A stretch of 64,000 nucleotides of DNA. Origin: a virus. Below the pieces are notes generated by a model, which was given only the letters and a program-made list of their open reading frames with translations, did not search any database and was not told the DNA's origin. This document shows positions 4,629 through 44,356 of the stretch, piece after piece (within the stretch, counting starts at the first letter, position 1; each line of letters begins with the position of its first letter). Position numbers and translations under genes: made by a program. The stretch is from IMG/VR virus record IMGVR_UViG_3300045971_000528, positions 42,082 to 106,081 of that record; one strand, written 5' to 3'.

Positions 4629-5735
4629 TTAGCAGGCTCTTTCGTCAGGTTGCAGCATCGAGATCAGAGCACCGATGCGGGCTTGTTCGATGCCCTCACC
4701 GATTTCCTTGCCGCTCATGCCATCGGCCACGAACACGGGTGCCAGTTGAGAAGCCAGCGGTTGCGCGAGGCTGAAGCCACCCACCATTTCGCGGGCAGTG
4801 AATGTCTGCGCTGTGCCCAACTTCGCCGCGCCGTAGCTGATCAGCGTGAACAGCTCCAGGCGCTTTTCATTCTGCCAGCCGATGCGCCGCAGCAATGCAC
4901 TCAAATCGCGGGCGGTATGATTGGCTGTGCGGTTCTGGCTGATGAACTGCGCAAATGCCCAACCTTCGCTACCGCCGACCTGCATCGAGAACGCTTGATC
5001 ACTTTGCGCGATGGCTGTGAACGCCAGCACACGTTCGTCCTTGTTGAAGTTCTGGCGAACCCAACCAGCAACATCGGCGAGTCGCAAGGTGTTCATGCCG
5101 CGGAAGAAGCTGACGTGCTGGGTAACCTTCAGCTCATGCAGCATCTTGAAGAAGCGCATGCAGCCCTTGACCGTGCACGTCTTCAGCACCTTGACAATCT
5201 CGGCAGCGAAGCGCTCCCACGGCAGCTCATTCAGCTCGCCGCGTGCGACCATTTCCTGCGCGAATAACAGCGTGACGTCAGCGACCGTGAAATCCTCGAA
5301 GCGACCGTAGAAGCGAGCCAAACGAACGACGCGCAATGGGTCTTCCTTGAAGGCACTCGACACATGGCGTAGGATGCGCTTGTTGATGTCGTTGATGCCG
5401 TCGAACGGGTCGATGAACTCGCTGGTCTCTTCGTCCATGGCGATCGCATTGATCGTCAAGTCACGACGGCCCAGGTCGTCGGCCAGCGTGACATCTTCGT
5501 CGTAGTGCACCGCGAAACCGTGGTAGCCGGCCCCCGTCTTGCGCTCCGTGCGAGCGAGAGCGTATTCTTCACCCGTCGTGGGATGCAGGAAGACAGGGAA
5601 ATCGGCACCGACTTGTTCGTAGCCCATGGCCAGCATCTCTTGCGGGGATGCACCAACGACTACATAGTCACGGTCCTGGATGGAGTTGCCCATCAACAGG
5701 TCACGAACTGCGCCACCAACGAGGTATTGTTTCAT
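4629..5735 (-). CDS. cca: tRNA nucleotidyltransferase (CCA-adding enzyme)
   Basis: VGGAVRD, DxD, RRDLTINA, EDPLRVVR motifs. Confidence 0.95.
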   Translation of the reverse strand: MKQYLVGGAVRDLLMGNSIQDRDYVVVGASPQEMLAMGYEQVGADFPVFLHPTTGEEYALARTERKTGAGYHGFAVHYDEDVTLADDLGRRDLTINAIAMDEETSEFIDPFDGINDINKRILRHVSSAFKEDPLRVVRLARFYGRFEDFTVADVTLLFAQEMVARGELNELPWERFAAEIVKVLKTCTVKGCMRFFKMLHELKVTQHVSFFRGMNTLRLADVAGWVRQNFNKDERVLAFTAIAQSDQAFSMQVGGSEGWAFAQFISQNRTANHTARDLSALLRRIGWQNEKRLELFTLISYGAAKLGTAQTFTAREMVGGFSLAQPLASQLAPVFVADGMSGKEIGEGIEQARIGALISMLQPDERAC

Positions 5736-40514: not shown

Positions 40515-40976
40515 TCATAGTCCAAGTTCCTTCTTCAGTTTGGTGTACTGCTCGAGCTGGCTTTTGCGGAGCCGCTCGTCAGCCAAGGCCCTCGCCTTGA
40601 GTGCATTGGCGTGTGCTTCGGCTTCGCGGGCTTCACGGAGCTTCTTCTCACGTGCTGCCCGCTCTTCGAAGATCTGCGCCACGAGGGCATCGAACTTCAC
40701 AAGCTCTTCACGTTCCTCGTCAGACCACTTGTCGTCCTCGGCGCTGTAGTCCGAGTGCTGGAGGTTCTGGAAGTTGTCGTCACCGTGACGCTTCCCGTTG
40801 ATCAGGAGAAGCGTGTCAGCAGACGACCACTGGCAGTTTGCCCAAGCACGAGCTGCTTCGTCGAGTTCATCGAACTGTTCGATCTCGCAAGAGCCCTCCG
40901 AGAGGATTCGATCTGGGTCGCCGCAGCAGCCGCGCTCGATCTCGGTGCCTTCGAACTTGATGATGGTGAACTTCAT
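40515..40976 (-). CDS. hypothetical protein, C-terminal coiled coil
   Basis: ATGA-coupled. Confidence 0.7.
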   Translation of the reverse strand: MKFTIIKFEGTEIERGCCGDPDRILSEGSCEIEQFDELDEAARAWANCQWSSADTLLLINGKRHGDDNFQNLQHSDYSAEDDKWSDEEREELVKFDALVAQIFEERAAREKKLREAREAEAHANALKARALADERLRKSQLEQYTKLKKELGL

Positions 40977-41365
40977 GATTGTGCCCCAGTGATACGGTGG
41001 TATTCAGCGATGATCGCGGCCTTCCGAGCTTCTTCAGCGCGGGCAGCTTCTTGACGTTCGGCTTCTTCCTTGTCGGCAACGAACTGCTTCGCAGCAGCGA
41101 TCGGGTCTTCGGCGTTCATCACGCTCAGCGGGATCCGATGTTCGCCGTCCATAGCGCAGCATCGAACTTCGTACGCTGTCTCGATCACGAACTCGTCGCC
41201 GTCCTCGTACGTGCGAGTGATTCGGTCGTGCCCGATCTGGCCTTCACCGAGGGCTTCGAGAATCTTGTCGAGCTCGATAGCGAACTCGTACGATGCCTGC
41301 GCCTTGCGGGCCTTGGCATGGCTGATCTCAGATTCGAGATCGCTGAGTGTGTCGCGGAGGCTCAT
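40973..41365 (-). CDS. hypothetical protein, C-terminal coiled coil
   Basis: ATGA-coupled. Confidence 0.7.
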   Translation of the reverse strand: MSLRDTLSDLESEISHAKARKAQASYEFAIELDKILEALGEGQIGHDRITRTYEDGDEFVIETAYEVRCCAMDGEHRIPLSVMNAEDPIAAAKQFVADKEEAERQEAARAEEARKAAIIAEYHRITGAQS

Positions 41366-41820
41366 GATTGTCCTCCCATGGCGGCGAGCTTCTTGTTCAG
41401 CTCTGCCTGTTGGCGGAGCAGCGCAGCACGGGTCTGTTCGAGTTCCTTCTGTGCCGCCTGGATCTTGCGGGCCTCGATCGTCTTCAGATGACGCTTGAAG
41501 AAGTCGAACTGCTTCTGCTTGAAGAGATCGTGCTGGCCGTCGAGCACCAGCGGGTCGAGTTGAAAGCTGCCGCTGATCTCGTCTTGACCACCCCAGTGAC
41601 CGCGTTCCCAGCAGTTGATCGAACCACCTTCACCCACCTCCATCCAATCCGTGTACTGGAGATAGCGATAGTTCGAGTCCATGCTGTGTGAAAAGCCGGC
41701 AGTGACCGAAGCTTCTCGCATGAGTTGGAGTTGAGTCTCGGCGAAGCCGTGAAGCTTGCCCTCGAGTTCGCTGACTTGGTTCATGAGGTCAGCATGTTGT
41801 TGCAAAAGTGCGTGGCTCAT
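41362..41820 (-). CDS. hypothetical protein, C-terminal coiled coil
   Basis: ATGA overlap with the Pth2 stop. Confidence 0.7.
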   Translation of the reverse strand: MSHALLQQHADLMNQVSELEGKLHGFAETQLQLMREASVTAGFSHSMDSNYRYLQYTDWMEVGEGGSINCWERGHWGGQDEISGSFQLDPLVLDGQHDLFKQKQFDFFKRHLKTIEARKIQAAQKELEQTRAALLRQQAELNKKLAAMGGQS

Positions 41821-42146
41821 TTGATGCTCCAAAGTGGGAGATGTGAAAGGAAGAACTTTTGATCGGCAGTGATCATGCACGAGATCGCAGTGAGACCCCA
41901 GTGTTGGTAGGGTTCATGGAACTCGGCAGTCTTGATGCCCTGTTCGTGCAGCGAATGACGCAGCAACTCGAGTGACTTGGTGTCACGAGCAGACAGGTGG
42001 ATCAAAGACGGGTGATGGTCGTGAGGGCGACCGAACTGGAACGCGTATTCGAGAGCGGCGTGGCCGGCCTGAATAGCCTGGTGCGCGAGTGGGAGATCGC
42101 GGCGGGAGATCGTGTAGAGATAGGACTTGCGGGAAACCTACATCAT
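41817..42146 (-). CDS. Pth2-like peptidyl-tRNA hydrolase with in-frame TAG at codon 3
   Basis: GAGG-N5-ATG ATG TAG then VSRKSYLYTISRRDLPLAHQAIQAGHAALE...FHEP..GLTAIS..LPLW. Confidence 0.8.
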
Positions 42147-42262
42147 GATAGCCTCGTAGTGTGGTGACTTCGTTTACAGCGTGGTGAAGTCGATACCGGT
42201 TCAATGCTGCGGGACTCTTTGTTGACTGTTCTATTCTACCATAGTCAACGCCGAATGTACAA

Positions 42263-42547
42263 CTATTTATGCGAATCCTTCAGGTCGACACCCAGCATTT
42301 TGGCAGCAACCTCGTCGAAAGACATCTCGAGGTCATGGTAGACGATGGTGCTACCATCTTTGCGTGCCTTTTCCGTGAAGAGGTTCATGACCATGTTCGA
42401 CCGATGCTCGCGGCTCGGGTTCACGAGAGGACCCCAGAGCATCATGTCGCCGATCTTGGTGCCTTCAGCAGGCGGCCAGGTGGGCGTGATGCAGACGATG
42501 TCGTGTTCCTTGGCCACAGCCAGCATCTTGTCGAACAGGTTCTTCAT
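42263..42547 (-). CDS. hypothetical protein with RecA/UvsX-like fragment
   Basis: IVYHDLEMSFD..A..LGVD resembles a RecA segment. Confidence 0.5.
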   Translation of the reverse strand: MKNLFDKMLAVAKEHDIVCITPTWPPAEGTKIGDMMLWGPLVNPSREHRSNMVMNLFTEKARKDGSTIVYHDLEMSFDEVAAKMLGVDLKDSHK

Positions 42548-43032
42548 GATCCGGTGCTCAACATGAGGGTGTCAGCCCGGCCCGGCTTCGGCTGGAAATC
42601 CTCGACGAAGATGTGGTGGGTGTCACCACTCGCGTCGATCGCACCGTCAGCAGCGATGTAGAGGTCCTTCCAGGTGGGGCCTTCCACGTCTGCCGTCACA
42701 TGCACGGAGCTGGTGTGGTACTGGAGCTTTGTGATCTTGCCGAACGGATGGTCAGCGAGCAGGTCTTCGACTTCATGCAGACTCCAGATCGCCTTGAGGT
42801 TGTGCTCGATCGCGACCTTGCCGGCACTGTCGATGCTCTTCTCGGCCATTGCATCGTCCTGCTCGTACGCGTTCTTCAGCCCCTTATTCAGGAGGTCGAT
42901 CGCCTTCTGGAGACGGGCGGCCATCTTCGGATGCACGACGCCTTCCATCGACTGCAGAATGCCGTGCAGCTCGCACTTGGCATTGTGGACATCAGCGAAC
43001 TCAGAAGGAGTCAGAGTGGGAGAGATGTTCAT
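42544..43032 (-). CDS. hypothetical protein
   Basis: AAGGA RBS. Confidence 0.7.
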   Translation of the reverse strand: MNISPTLTPSEFADVHNAKCELHGILQSMEGVVHPKMAARLQKAIDLLNKGLKNAYEQDDAMAEKSIDSAGKVAIEHNLKAIWSLHEVEDLLADHPFGKITKLQYHTSSVHVTADVEGPTWKDLYIAADGAIDASGDTHHIFVEDFQPKPGRADTLMLSTGS

Positions 43033-43045
43033 GCCTGTCCTTGAT

Positions 43046-43120
43046 TGGTGCGCCCGGCGGGAATCGAACCCGCGCCAAAGGATTTAGAATCCCCTACTCT
43101 AACCGCTGAGCTACGAGCGC
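43046..43120 (-). tRNA. amber suppressor tRNA (anticodon CTA)
   Basis: stem GGGGA/TCCTT, loop TTCTAAA, CCA; own TATAAT just upstream. Confidence 0.8.
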
Positions 43121-43182
43121 GTATTTGGTGCATGTAGCCATTATACCATAAGCGCCGAATCCGGACAACAAGAAGTGTAACG

Positions 43183-43430: not shown

Positions 43431-43448
43431 ACGGACCCGAAGGTCCGT
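43431..43448 (-). terminator. cUUCGg terminator after tmRNA
   Basis: ACGGACC-TTCG-GGTCCGT followed by T-rich tract. Confidence 0.7.
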
Positions 43449-43454
43449 GTCGGA

Positions 43455-43740
43455 TGACTCAGCGAACTGAGTCACCTACCGTTTGATGACAAGGACCGGG
43501 TGTCCTCGCAAAGCTTACGCCGCTAGGCGCAGTCCTTCGAAGTTAGCATCGTTTGCAGATACTTGGTTTTGCTTGATTTACGGTCATCGCCTACCGAGCG
43601 CAAGAAAAGTTACTAGTCTGTCGGTCGATTACCAGATCACCCCCATCAGAAGAACACCCGCAGATGCGCTTATGGTGGAGGTGGGGGGATTTGAACCCCC
43701 GTGTCGCCAGCATTTCTCAGTCCTCGTTTACGCTGTTATT
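43455..43740 (-). ncRNA. ssrA: circularly permuted (two-piece) tmRNA, tag ANDANFEGLRLAA
   Basis: T arm and CCA (ending 43673) precede 5' GGGGGTG (43644); G3:U wobble; tag at 43515-43556; outer ends approximate. Confidence 0.92.
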
Positions 43741-44356
43741 GGAAGCCTGGGTTCAGGCGTCCCAATTTCAAATTCTTCGTCCTCTCGTCAGTGATGGCAA
43801 GCAGAAAATTGGTAGTTGAATCATTATACCACCTTTTCCCGTACGTGCCATTCTTTTTGCACTTTTTGTTTTCGATCCATTCGCTTGACAAAATCCATCC
43901 AACAGGTTGATCACCACGAACAAACCTCCTTCGGTCGCCATCAGCATCTCGATAGATGCTCGTACCAAATGCAGAATTTGTATCGCCTTGCTGGTGGTTG
44001 ATCGATGCGTATGTGTTCTTCCGTTTAGCAACCGCTTCTGGTGTGGAAGCCTGGGCCGTGGCATATTCTTGGTTCTTCGTATTTAGTTTCCAATTAGCAG
44101 ATGTCGGCTTTTTCCAGGGTTGATTTGCAGCGACTGCCTTATGACCACCTAGTCTTTGCAGCTCATGCACTAATTCTGACTTCGAGATAATTCCTGCCAA
44201 ACCTTTCCAAGCCAACTTGTCCTCTACTCTACCGTGCGTTTCATAGAGCAGCCGGTGTGCTTCGGCGTGTTCAGCAACGGTGAGCAGTTCTATGTTGTCT
44301 GGAGAATCTGTTCCACCAGCATGTGTGGGAATTTTGTGATGACGATGTTTCAACAT
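43736..44356 (-). mobile_element. HNH homing endonuclease
   Basis: HHKIP..GG.D..DN..L...EH...H; AT-rich; TATAAATA 4 nt before ATG. Confidence 0.88.

What the first reader, a model, noticed from the sequence alone, without database searches (positions are those of the whole stretch)
40515..43150. Amber-gated peptidyl-tRNA hydrolase operon with its own CUA suppressor tRNA
Seen: after a good RBS (GAGG, 5-nt spacer) the frame at 42146 reads ATG ATG TAG. It then continues for 106 sense codons as an intact Pth2-fold protein (RRDL..QAIQAGHAALE..FHEP..LTAI..LPLW). The first alternative start (TTG, 42005) lies after the conserved QxxH motif, so active enzyme needs readthrough; the ORF track found only the fragment. 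About 900 bp upstream is a CCA-ended tRNA with loop TT-CTA-AA behind its own promoter. The Pth2 stop overlaps the next gene (ATGA), and three coiled-coil genes follow by ATGA coupling. Known: very short minigenes cause peptidyl-tRNA drop-off, and Pth recycles those tRNAs. Inference: a translational switch that makes Pth2 (and perhaps the coupled genes) only when suppression out-competes RF1, i.e. a sensor of termination failure or a timing device, sitting next to the tmRNA.
Basis: partly seen in the sequence, partly recalled or inferred. Interest (0 to 1): 0.92.

Follow-up and report, generated by a model that had tools for sequence, protein, structure and literature searches.

The report
Suppressor tRNA gates phage Pth2-like gene
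A giant phage that otherwise uses the normal genetic code keeps a UAG stop as the third codon of a small tRNA-hydrolase-like gene, next to its own UAG-reading tRNA. Dozens of related phages, including cultured ones, keep the same arrangement, so this looks like a natural tRNA-operated translation switch that I found described in no paper.

Summary
On the minus strand a GAGG ribosome-binding site is followed by ATG ATG TAG (TAG at 42138-42140). Then come 106 sense codons of a protein with a PTH2 fold. The tRNA(CUA) lies 0.9 kb upstream and the tmRNA beside it.

The TAG is neither an error nor a private mutation:
- ATG, 1-6 codons, then an in-frame stop precedes this gene in 26 of 29 related viral loci and in six cultured jumbo phages. 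In some of these the gene is unannotated or called truncated.
- The two loci whose gate is TGA carry tRNA(UCA) instead of tRNA(CUA).
- A second neighbouring gene (HD-like, about 190 aa) has the same gate with the same covariation. It is fused to the Pth2-like domain in Xanthomonas phage XacN1.
- Three complete relatives are not recoded. Conserved genes hold no in-frame stops, and TAG and TGA still terminate genes.
- The open frame behind the gate is under purifying selection (dN/dS about 0.1-0.2), and the base after the stop is always a purine.

The best reading is a translational gate that depends on the suppressor tRNA. Why the phage has it is inferred, not shown; I favour feedback on suppressor activity.

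This scan found the same module before on other DNA. I found no paper describing it, and the XacN1 paper says the targets of its suppressor tRNAs are unknown.

The parts
43452..43785 (-). tmRNA gene at the upstream edge of the module
   Evidence: Rfam beta_tmRNA 90.5 bits. ARAGORN tmRNA at 43432-43765. A tmRNA lies upstream of the suppressor tRNA in 15 of the 29 related loci.
43140..43168 (-). Promoter-like site in front of the tRNA (TTGTCC, 17 nt, TATAAT, with TG)
   Evidence: Consensus scan, 10 of 12 matches. This is a consensus match only.
43046..43120 (-). Amber-suppressor tRNA: anticodon CUA, loop UUCUAAA, discriminator A73, CCA encoded
   Evidence: ARAGORN. Rfam tRNA 68.8 bits. It is the only suppressor among the 57 tRNAs of the 106-kb record.
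42263..43032 (-). Two ORFs (162 aa and 94 aa, ATGA overlap) between the tRNA and the gated gene; function unknown
   Evidence: ORF list. No Pfam or PHROG family.
42233..42261 (-). Promoter-like site in front of the gated gene (TGTACA, 17 nt, TAGAAT, with TG). It shares the motif ATTCGGCG..ATGGTAkAAT with the tRNA's site.
   Evidence: and direct reading.
42141..42155 (-). Ribosome-binding site GAGG, 5-nt spacer and the two-codon leader ATG ATG
   Evidence: An RBS followed by ATG and 1-6 codons is present in 26 of 29 related loci.
42138..42140 (-). The gate: in-frame TAG at codon 3, followed by a purine (G)
   Evidence: Conserved stop in relatives. Covaries with the tRNA anticodon. A purine at +4 in 42 of 42 distinct gates.
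41817..42137 (-). Pth2-fold ORF behind the gate (106 codons plus TGA)
   Evidence: 43 close homologs. 27 of 62 relatives match PF01981. Profile against PDB 2zv3, E 2e-6. AlphaFold model pLDDT 91; Foldseek TM 0.7-0.8 to Bit1, MJ0051 and AF2095. dN/dS 0.08-0.22.
40515..41820 (-). Three small ORFs (152, 130 and 153 aa) joined to the gated gene and to each other by ATGA overlaps. They are specific to this phage.
   Evidence: No family hits. Relatives carry the HD-like gene 2 here instead.

Best explanation
The TAG at codon 3 is a selected translational gate read by the phage's own amber-suppressor tRNA.

How it works. Ribosomes start at the ATG behind the GAGG site. At the UAG, release factor 1 ends translation after two residues and no protein results. 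If charged tRNA(CUA) wins the competition, one amino acid of unknown identity is inserted and the 109-residue Pth2-fold protein is made. Output therefore follows the ratio of suppressor to release factor.

Shown by comparison: the gate is conserved, its stop type matches the neighbouring suppressor tRNA, and the genomes otherwise use the standard code.

Inferred:
- The gated proteins act on the suppressor tRNA or on products of its action. These proteins are the Pth2-like hydrolase here and, in relatives, also an HD phosphohydrolase like the C-terminal part of CCA-adding enzymes. Both would work at the 3' end of tRNA.
- If so, the gate couples their dose to suppressor activity. I favour a negative-feedback governor that keeps readthrough of real stop codons tolerable (about 35%).
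- Second choice is demand-coupled clean-up beside the tmRNA (about 20-25%).
- Third is a plain feed-forward AND gate or delay (about 25-30%).
- The ATGA overlaps may pass the gate's state on to the three downstream ORFs.
For: 1. Conservation. ATG, 1-6 codons, then a stop precedes the domain in 26 of 29 viral loci from many metagenomes. The same holds in two MAG contigs and in cultured phages RsoM2USA, Serratia BF, Pectobacterium CBB, Acinetobacter ME3, XacN1 and Xoo-sp13.
2. Covariation. In the window and 19 related loci a TAG gate lies with tRNA(CUA) in the same locus. Both TGA-gated loci (L026, L030) carry tRNA(UCA) and no CUA. There is no mismatched pair. Complete genomes hold only the matching suppressor type: G001 and G003 CUA, G002 UCA.
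3. A second gene, 0.3-1.6 kb downstream in relatives, has the same gate: TAG in 18 loci, TGA in L030. It is fused to the Pth2-like domain behind ATG AAG TAG in XacN1 and Xoo-sp13.
4. The genomes are not recoded. Among 12-15 thousand conserved best-frame codons per genome, only noise-level in-frame stops were found. Conserved ORFs end in TAA/TGA/TAG 62/53/12, 70/51/4 and 42/54/8.
5. Selection. dN/dS is 0.08-0.22 while dS is 0.7-2.3, yet the stop is kept.
6. The base after the gate is a purine in 42 of 42 distinct gates, against about half at real terminators. From established knowledge, that context favours nonsense suppression.
7. No canonical start codon follows the gate.
8. Distant relatives keep an ungated Pth2-like gene right beside a tRNA(CUA), which ties the enzyme to the tRNA itself.
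Against: - Nothing here is experimental. Whether the tRNA is made, charged, and with which amino acid is unknown. Its body resembles no single isoacceptor.
- One 94%-complete relative (G010) has both TAG gates but no recognisable CUA tRNA.
- The cognate stop still ends many conserved phage genes (TGA ends 54 of 104 in the UCA-type phage), so a strong suppressor should be costly. I saw no clear excess of back-up stops.
- The TGA-type loci number only two, and the short-protein tree cannot prove two independent switches.
- In XacN1, and in L026 (GTG), a start codon follows soon after the gate, so gating may be partial there.
- The Lys of the canonical Pth2 motif is not conserved, so hydrolase activity is unproven.
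Confidence: 0.8

Rival explanations
1. The phage uses a recoded genetic code (TAG read as an amino acid throughout, 'code 15'), and this TAG is just one of many sense TAGs.
For: A phage-encoded tRNA(CUA) is typical of recoded phages (preprint 10.1101/2021.08.26.457843). The window's record is only about 29% complete, so late genes are unseen. Database homologs show Q at the gate position, probably from code-15 gene calls.
Against: Three complete relatives show no credible in-frame TAG or TGA in 12-15 thousand conserved codons. They still use TAG (4-12 ORFs) and TGA (51-54 ORFs) as terminators. Pattern scans find only the two gated genes per genome. A freely used sense codon would not stay at one position across dS above 1.
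Confidence: 0.03
2. The ATG-x-stop is a tiny leader ORF, and the Pth2-like frame is translated by reinitiation or a non-canonical start just behind the stop. The suppressor tRNA is not needed for it.
For: ATT or ATC follows the stop in many loci, GTG in L026, and an ATG four codons later in XacN1. G010 has gates but no detectable suppressor.
Against: The codon after the stop is often AAC, ACA, ACC or GTT (as in the window), none of which is a start codon. The leader is always in frame with the domain. Reinitiation does not explain why the stop type follows the tRNA anticodon in two genes at once.
Confidence: 0.08
3. The gate is real but is read by background readthrough or a host suppressor, simply to keep expression very low. 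The phage suppressor tRNA has another main job, such as extending or disturbing host or phage proteins.
For: The cognate stop ends many genes, so the tRNA must have wider effects if it is active. No other target has been identified in the literature (PMC5852040). G010 lacks a visible suppressor.
Against: Covariation of stop type with anticodon and tight physical linkage in more than 20 loci. UAG is a poorly leaky stop (established knowledge). The purine at +4 fits tRNA-mediated suppression.
Confidence: 0.08
4. Sequencing error, private nonsense mutation or decaying pseudogene.
For: Only the probable source run covers the TAG itself.
Against: The same early stop occurs in 26 of 29 independent loci and in six cultured phage genomes. 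There is strong purifying selection behind it, and the fold is predicted with high confidence.
Confidence: 0.01

Closest known systems
Stop-codon-recoded phages with their own suppressor tRNAs (code 15 TAG=Gln, code 4 TGA=Trp; crAss-like, Lak and others; Borges et al. preprint 10.1101/2021.08.26.457843)
   Same: A phage-encoded suppressor tRNA makes genes with in-frame stops translatable. Those authors also propose it as a post-transcriptional regulator.
   Different: Here the genome is standard-code: no in-frame stops in conserved genes, and the cognate stop is still a terminator. Only one or two genes are affected. The stop sits at a fixed place, codon 2-7 (later in a few gene-2 leaders), and has been held there over long divergence. 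The gated genes are themselves tRNA-related and lie next to the tRNA. That preprint mentions neither peptidyl-tRNA hydrolase nor tmRNA.
prfB (release factor 2) autoregulation through an early in-frame UGA (established knowledge)
   Same: An early, conserved in-frame stop in a translation-factor gene makes its synthesis depend on how well that stop is decoded.
   Different: prfB needs a +1 frameshift and senses its own product. Whether the product feeds back on decoding is untested.
Synthetic suppressor-tRNA feed-forward 'leak dampener' (Nucleic Acids Res 2020, PMC7969014; seen, title and abstract only)
   Same: An engineered circuit that uses a suppressor tRNA in a coherent feed-forward loop to remove leaky expression. 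From my own knowledge, the target gene there carries early amber codons and is made only when the suppressor tRNA is co-expressed. That is the same logic as this module.
   Different: That circuit is man-made. This one is natural, conserved in a phage clade, and gates enzymes that probably act on tRNA.
Archaeal and eukaryotic peptidyl-tRNA hydrolase 2 (PF01981; PDB 2zv3, 1q7s, 3erj)
   Same: Same alpha/beta fold (TM 0.7-0.8). The Q..H..A motif in the first helix is conserved.
   Different: A distant branch: the window protein is below Pfam's cut-off. The motif Lys is replaced. The family is phage-borne.
Phage lambda bar minigenes and peptidyl-tRNA drop-off (established knowledge)
   Same: A ribosome-binding site followed by a 2-4-codon ORF and a stop, the kind of sequence that yields very short peptidyl-tRNAs handled by Pth.
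   Different: Here the frame continues into a conserved protein, and the stop type follows a suppressor tRNA. Drop-off or toxicity was not tested.

Membership tests
PTH2 peptidyl-tRNA hydrolase (PF01981) | PTH2 alpha/beta fold | tested here: met
   AlphaFold model pLDDT 91.4. Foldseek best hits are 1q7s, 2zv3, 3erj, 1wn2 and 1rlk, with probability 1.00 and TM 0.70-0.80.
PTH2 peptidyl-tRNA hydrolase (PF01981) | Sequence match above Pfam's gathering score | tested here: not met
   The window protein scores 12.9 bits against a cut-off of 23. 27 of 62 relatives match at E<=0.01, best 6e-8. The family profile matches 2zv3 at E 2e-6.
PTH2 peptidyl-tRNA hydrolase (PF01981) | Catalytic motif residues (the Lys of G-K..Q..H-A and the acidic residue before the T-A strand; assignment from my own knowledge) | tested here: inconclusive
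   Gln26 and His29 are invariant. The Lys position aligns with Gln or His. E78 of FHEP is invariant.
PTH2 peptidyl-tRNA hydrolase (PF01981) | Hydrolysis of peptidyl-tRNA | not testable with these tools
   Needs an enzyme assay.
Stop-codon-recoded phage (code 15 / code 4) | Phage-encoded suppressor tRNA for the recoded stop | tested here: met
   tRNA(CUA) at 43046-43120.
Stop-codon-recoded phage (code 15 / code 4) | Many genes with in-frame copies of the recoded stop | tested here: not met
   No credible in-frame stop in 12-15 thousand conserved codons of three complete relatives, or in 2.5 thousand of the window's record apart from the gate. Only the two gated genes fit the gate pattern.
Stop-codon-recoded phage (code 15 / code 4) | The recoded stop is no longer used as a terminator | tested here: not met
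   TAG ends 12 of 127 and 4 of 125 conserved ORFs in the CUA-type genomes. TGA ends 54 of 104 in the UCA-type genome.
prfB-type autoregulatory in-frame stop | Early in-frame stop conserved across homologs | tested here: met
prfB-type autoregulatory in-frame stop | Passage by +1 frameshift | tested here: not met
   The leader ATG and the domain are in the same frame in all loci.
prfB-type autoregulatory in-frame stop | The gene product changes decoding of its own gate | not testable with these tools
   Needs biochemistry or genetics.
Functional elongator suppressor tRNA | Cloverleaf with 7-nt anticodon loop, U33, anticodon CUA, purine 37, T-loop GTTCGA, 3' CCA | tested here: met
   ARAGORN and Rfam. 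Sequence read: loop UUCUAAA, T-loop GGTTCGATTCC, CCA encoded.
Functional elongator suppressor tRNA | Aminoacylation, and which amino acid | tested here: inconclusive
   The nearest bodies are Arg, Phe or Lys at 0.74-0.78 identity, with no consistent isotype across 30 suppressors. The tRNA lacks A20 and C35, the Arg identity elements (my own knowledge).

The most novel reading that the evidence does not exclude
The suppressor tRNA and the one or two gated tRNA-3'-end hydrolases form a self-contained autoregulatory circuit. It would be a natural tRNA-operated homeostat that sets how much stop-codon readthrough an infected standard-code cell experiences, with the gate acting as its sensor. This would name the long-sought targets of suppressor tRNAs in standard-code jumbo phages such as XacN1.
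Probability: 0.3. Interest if true: 0.92.

Novelty: new variant of a known kind. Interest (0 to 1): 0.82.

Why it matters
Many jumbo phages with the standard code carry suppressor tRNAs whose purpose is unexplained. The XacN1 paper states that no target genes could be identified (PMC5852040), and the RsoM2USA paper names none (PMC8504454). This module supplies concrete, conserved targets. Gene callers miss or truncate them, and the gene is unannotated in Serratia phage BF and RsoM2USA.

It would also be a natural example of a tRNA used as a translational regulator of specific genes, the same logic as synthetic amber-codon circuits. It links stop-codon suppression, tmRNA rescue and enzymes of the tRNA 3' end in one phage cassette. 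It may also be a stepping stone towards full stop-codon recoding.

Because cultured phages on tractable hosts carry it, the idea can be tested directly.

Tried and rejected
- Megablast of the region against cultured phage records gave no match. Only the protein-level search found relatives.
- A codon-usage score for in-frame stops was too weak to discriminate. A first comparative screen was swamped by off-frame alignments. Both were replaced by the best-frame test.
- Back-up stops behind cognate terminators gave no clear signal, and n is small.
- tRNA isotype by similarity gave no consistent nearest isoacceptor.
- The Pth2-like tree is too poorly resolved to count TAG-to-TGA switches. The best tree separates L026 and L030, but one origin is not excluded.
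- I looked for a UUA tRNA for the TAA-gated locus L097 and a CUA tRNA for L019/L020. None was found in the fragments or in the 94%-complete G010. An odd tRNA-like element with an insertion in G010 could not be resolved.
- The gene-2 homolog is not present in the window's 106-kb record.
- The genome-contig scan found only short MAG contigs carrying the same TAG gate, probably binned phage DNA.
- Sequencing runs: no RNA holder is listed. Two DNA runs were laid as contigs. The probable source run is identical, and the second run does not cover the TAG.
- The search for related loci could not use the broad alignment A2.
Full report
**1. What is in the window**

All features below lie on the minus strand.
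- A tmRNA lies at 43452-43785 (Rfam beta_tmRNA, 90.5 bits; ARAGORN).
- It is followed by a promoter-like site at 43168-43140.
- Next is a 75-nt tRNA at 43046-43120 with anticodon loop UUCUAAA (anticodon CUA), discriminator A73 and an encoded CCA.
- Two overlapping ORFs of 162 and 94 aa follow.
- A second promoter-like site sits at 42261-42233. It shares a motif with the one before the tRNA.
- Then come GAGG, a 5-nt spacer and ATG ATG TAG, with the TAG at 42138-42140.
- Behind the TAG are 106 sense codons ending in a TGA. That TGA overlaps the ATG of the next ORF.
- Three small ORFs follow, each joined by an ATGA overlap.
- No ATG, GTG or TTG lies between the TAG and the TTG at 42005, which is behind the conserved Q..H motif.

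The window is the right-hand 64 kb of a 106-kb IMG/VR virus record, estimated about 29% complete. It is a fragment of a jumbo phage with 57 tRNA genes and a tmRNA.

**2. The protein**

Read through the TAG, the 109-aa product has 43 close homologs of 75-139 aa with no Pfam annotation. A library-wide search finds 339 representatives at E<=0.001.
- The window protein itself is below Pfam's PTH2 cut-off.
- However, 27 of 62 relatives match PF01981.
- The family profile matches archaeal Pth2 structures, 2zv3 at E 2e-6.
- An AlphaFold model (pLDDT 91) superposes on Bit1/PTRH2, MJ0051 and AF2095 with TM 0.7-0.8.

So it is a distant, phage-borne branch of the PTH2 fold. Gln26 and His29 are invariant, but the Lys of the canonical motif is replaced. 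I therefore call it Pth2-like and leave the substrate open.

**3. The early stop is conserved**

A scan of viral contigs returned 29 related loci, many from contigs of 230-360 kb.
- In 26 of them the conserved domain is preceded, in frame, by a good ribosome-binding site, ATG (GTG in L029), 1-6 codons and a stop. The stop is TAG in 24 loci and TGA in 2.
- Three identical loci (L023-25) start directly at the domain.
- In one (L027) no start codon is visible before its in-frame TAG.

The same layout is present in two MAG contigs and in cultured phages:
- Ralstonia phage RsoM2USA and Serratia phage BF, where the gene lies in an unannotated gap.
- Pectobacterium phage CBB and Acinetobacter phage ME3, where the annotated CDS starts behind the gate.
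- Xanthomonas phages XacN1 and Xoo-sp13.

Pairwise dN/dS of the frame behind the gate is 0.08-0.22 while dS is 0.7-2.3. The protein is therefore under purifying selection, and the stop has been held while synonymous sites saturated. Database homologs show Q exactly at the gate position. Since no locus I could read has CAG there, I take these as code-15 gene calls of TAG. This is an inference.

**4. The stop type follows the tRNA**

- In the window and 19 related loci a TAG gate lies with one or two tRNA(CUA) genes in the same locus.
- The two TGA-gated loci (L026, L030) carry tRNA(UCA) and no CUA. No mismatched pair occurs.
- Whole-genome scans show one suppressor type only: CUA in G001 and G003, UCA in G002. 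It is always beside the gated genes.
- The base after the gate is a purine in 42 of 42 distinct gates, against about half at genuine terminators. From established knowledge this context favours nonsense suppression.
- The short tree places the two TGA loci apart but cannot exclude a single origin.

**5. A second gated gene**

Screening conserved ORFs that lack a start codon behind their upstream stop gave two hits beside the Pth2-like gene. One is a separate release-factor-like gene (section 9). The other lies 0.3-1.6 kb downstream of the Pth2-like gene and is about 190 aa long.
- It carries the same gate, usually ATG ACG TAG. The stop is TAG in 18 loci and TGA in L030, the UCA-type phage.
- In L012 and L023 the leader before its TAG is longer, 11 and 13 codons by my reading of the sequence.
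- It has an HD signature (H..HD..H..D).
- Its profile and model match the C-terminal part of class II tRNA nucleotidyltransferases (3wfo-3wfs) and then HD phosphohydrolases.
- In XacN1 and Xoo-sp13 this protein and the Pth2-like domain are fused in one ORF behind ATG AAG TAG. That argues they work together.
- The window's record lacks this gene and has the three small ORFs in its place.

**6. The genomes are not recoded**

I fetched three complete relatives. For every codon I compared six-frame conservation and kept only the best frame.
- Among 12-15 thousand conserved codons per genome, the few in-frame stops are off-frame noise of all three kinds. The only real one recovered is the window's gate.
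- Conserved ORFs end in TAA/TGA/TAG 62/53/12 (G001), 70/51/4 (G003) and 42/54/8 (G002, the UCA type).
- A pattern scan for RBS, ATG, a short leader and a stop followed by a long ORF finds only the two gated genes as credible cases.

These phages therefore use the standard code and reserve suppression for one or two genes, as far as can be seen.

**7. How it most likely works**

Shown by comparison: full-length protein needs decoding of the stop, and the decoder is the neighbouring suppressor tRNA. Termination at codon 3 costs only a dipeptide, which may be why the gate sits so early.

The purpose is inferred. Three facts point to enzymes that act on the suppressor tRNA or on what it produces:
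- Both gated proteins look like enzymes of the tRNA 3' end.
- Distant relatives keep an ungated Pth2-like gene right next to a tRNA(CUA).
- The cognate stop still ends many phage genes, so suppression must be kept in bounds.

A gate then makes enzyme dose follow suppressor activity. I favour a negative-feedback governor. Demand-coupled clean-up beside the tmRNA, or a simple feed-forward AND gate or delay as in a synthetic circuit (PMC7969014), remain open.

**8. Exceptions and weak points**

- G010 (94% complete) has both TAG gates but no recognisable CUA tRNA. An odd tRNA-like element with an insertion could not be resolved.
- L097 has a TAA gate without a visible UUA tRNA in its 33-kb fragment.
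- The amino acid inserted is unknown. The tRNA bodies resemble no single isotype, except that L026's UCA tRNA is nearest to Trp.
- No expression data could be obtained.

**9. What is known, and earlier notes of this scan**

Recoded phages with suppressor tRNAs are well described, but I found no paper on this standard-code gate. The XacN1 paper explicitly reports that no target of its CUA tRNAs could be found.

Earlier notes of this scan describe the same module on other DNA, including UGA and UAA forms. I reached my reading, before opening them, and my results agree.

New here, as far as those notes show:
- The HD-like second gated gene with matching covariation.
- Its fusion to the Pth2-like domain in XacN1.
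- The purine at +4.
- The whole-genome test against recoding in a UCA-type phage.

A short release-factor-like gene with a conserved in-frame TGA in G001 and G002 was noticed but not pursued.

Noticed in passing
G001:C1:302599-303444 (-) and G002:C1:286572-287258 (+) (relatives, not the window): A short release-factor-like gene (GGQ motif; tripeptide PPT as in RF1) has a conserved in-frame TGA about 35 codons in, with conservation on both sides. It occurs in a CUA-type phage as well as a UCA-type one, so what reads this TGA in G001 is open.
   Followed up: partly
L088 (Xanthomonas phage XacN1, AP018399 ORF364) and L091 (Xoo-sp13): The HD-like gene and the Pth2-like domain are fused in one ORF, preceded by RBS and ATG AAG TAG. 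The annotated start is an ATG four codons behind the TAG. The XacN1 authors reported finding no target for the phage's CUA tRNAs.
   Followed up: partly
L086 (Ralstonia phage RsoM2USA) about 5001-5340; L087 (Serratia phage BF) about 4985-5303: The gated Pth2-like gene lies in an unannotated gap of both GenBank records. BF has an annotated tRNA-Sup 3.2 kb downstream.
   Followed up: yes
G010 (contig of L020), 120875-121005 = L117:875-1005: A tRNA-like element has a matching acceptor stem, D-arm, T-loop and CCA, but about 60 extra bases after the D-arm. Neither ARAGORN nor Rfam calls it. This genome has TAG gates but no recognisable CUA tRNA.
   Followed up: partly
L097:5940-5961: A relative with an ochre gate (ATG TTG CCA CAC ACG TAA) before the Pth2-like domain. 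No UUA tRNA was found in the 33-kb fragment.
   Followed up: partly
L100, L101, L103, L104: More distant Pth2-like genes that seem to start at a normal ATG, yet have a tRNA(CUA) 0.02-0.7 kb downstream (L103 also has ATG TTT TAG 20 codons upstream).
   Followed up: partly
window 9979-33203 (-): An array of 29 tRNA genes, all on the minus strand. It includes three tRNA-Pro(UGG), a 92-nt tRNA called Ile(UAU) and several long tRNAs. The whole 106-kb record has 57 tRNA genes and a tmRNA.
   Followed up: no
window 43432-43785 (-): ARAGORN predicts an unusual tmRNA tag peptide (21 residues ending ..SKDCA), unlike the ANDxxxxxAA tags of relatives. Rfam's standard beta_tmRNA model and its permuted tmRNA model both match the region.
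   Followed up: no
window 42233-42256 and 43140-43165 (-): The promoter-like sites before the tRNA and before the gated gene share the motif ATTCGGCG..ATGGTAkAAT, which suggests common transcriptional control.
   Followed up: partly
L102:5925-5960: An ATG AAA TCC CAA (M K S Q) leader like those of the family lies out of frame with the Pth2-like domain. This could be a frameshift, an assembly indel or a different start.
   Followed up: no
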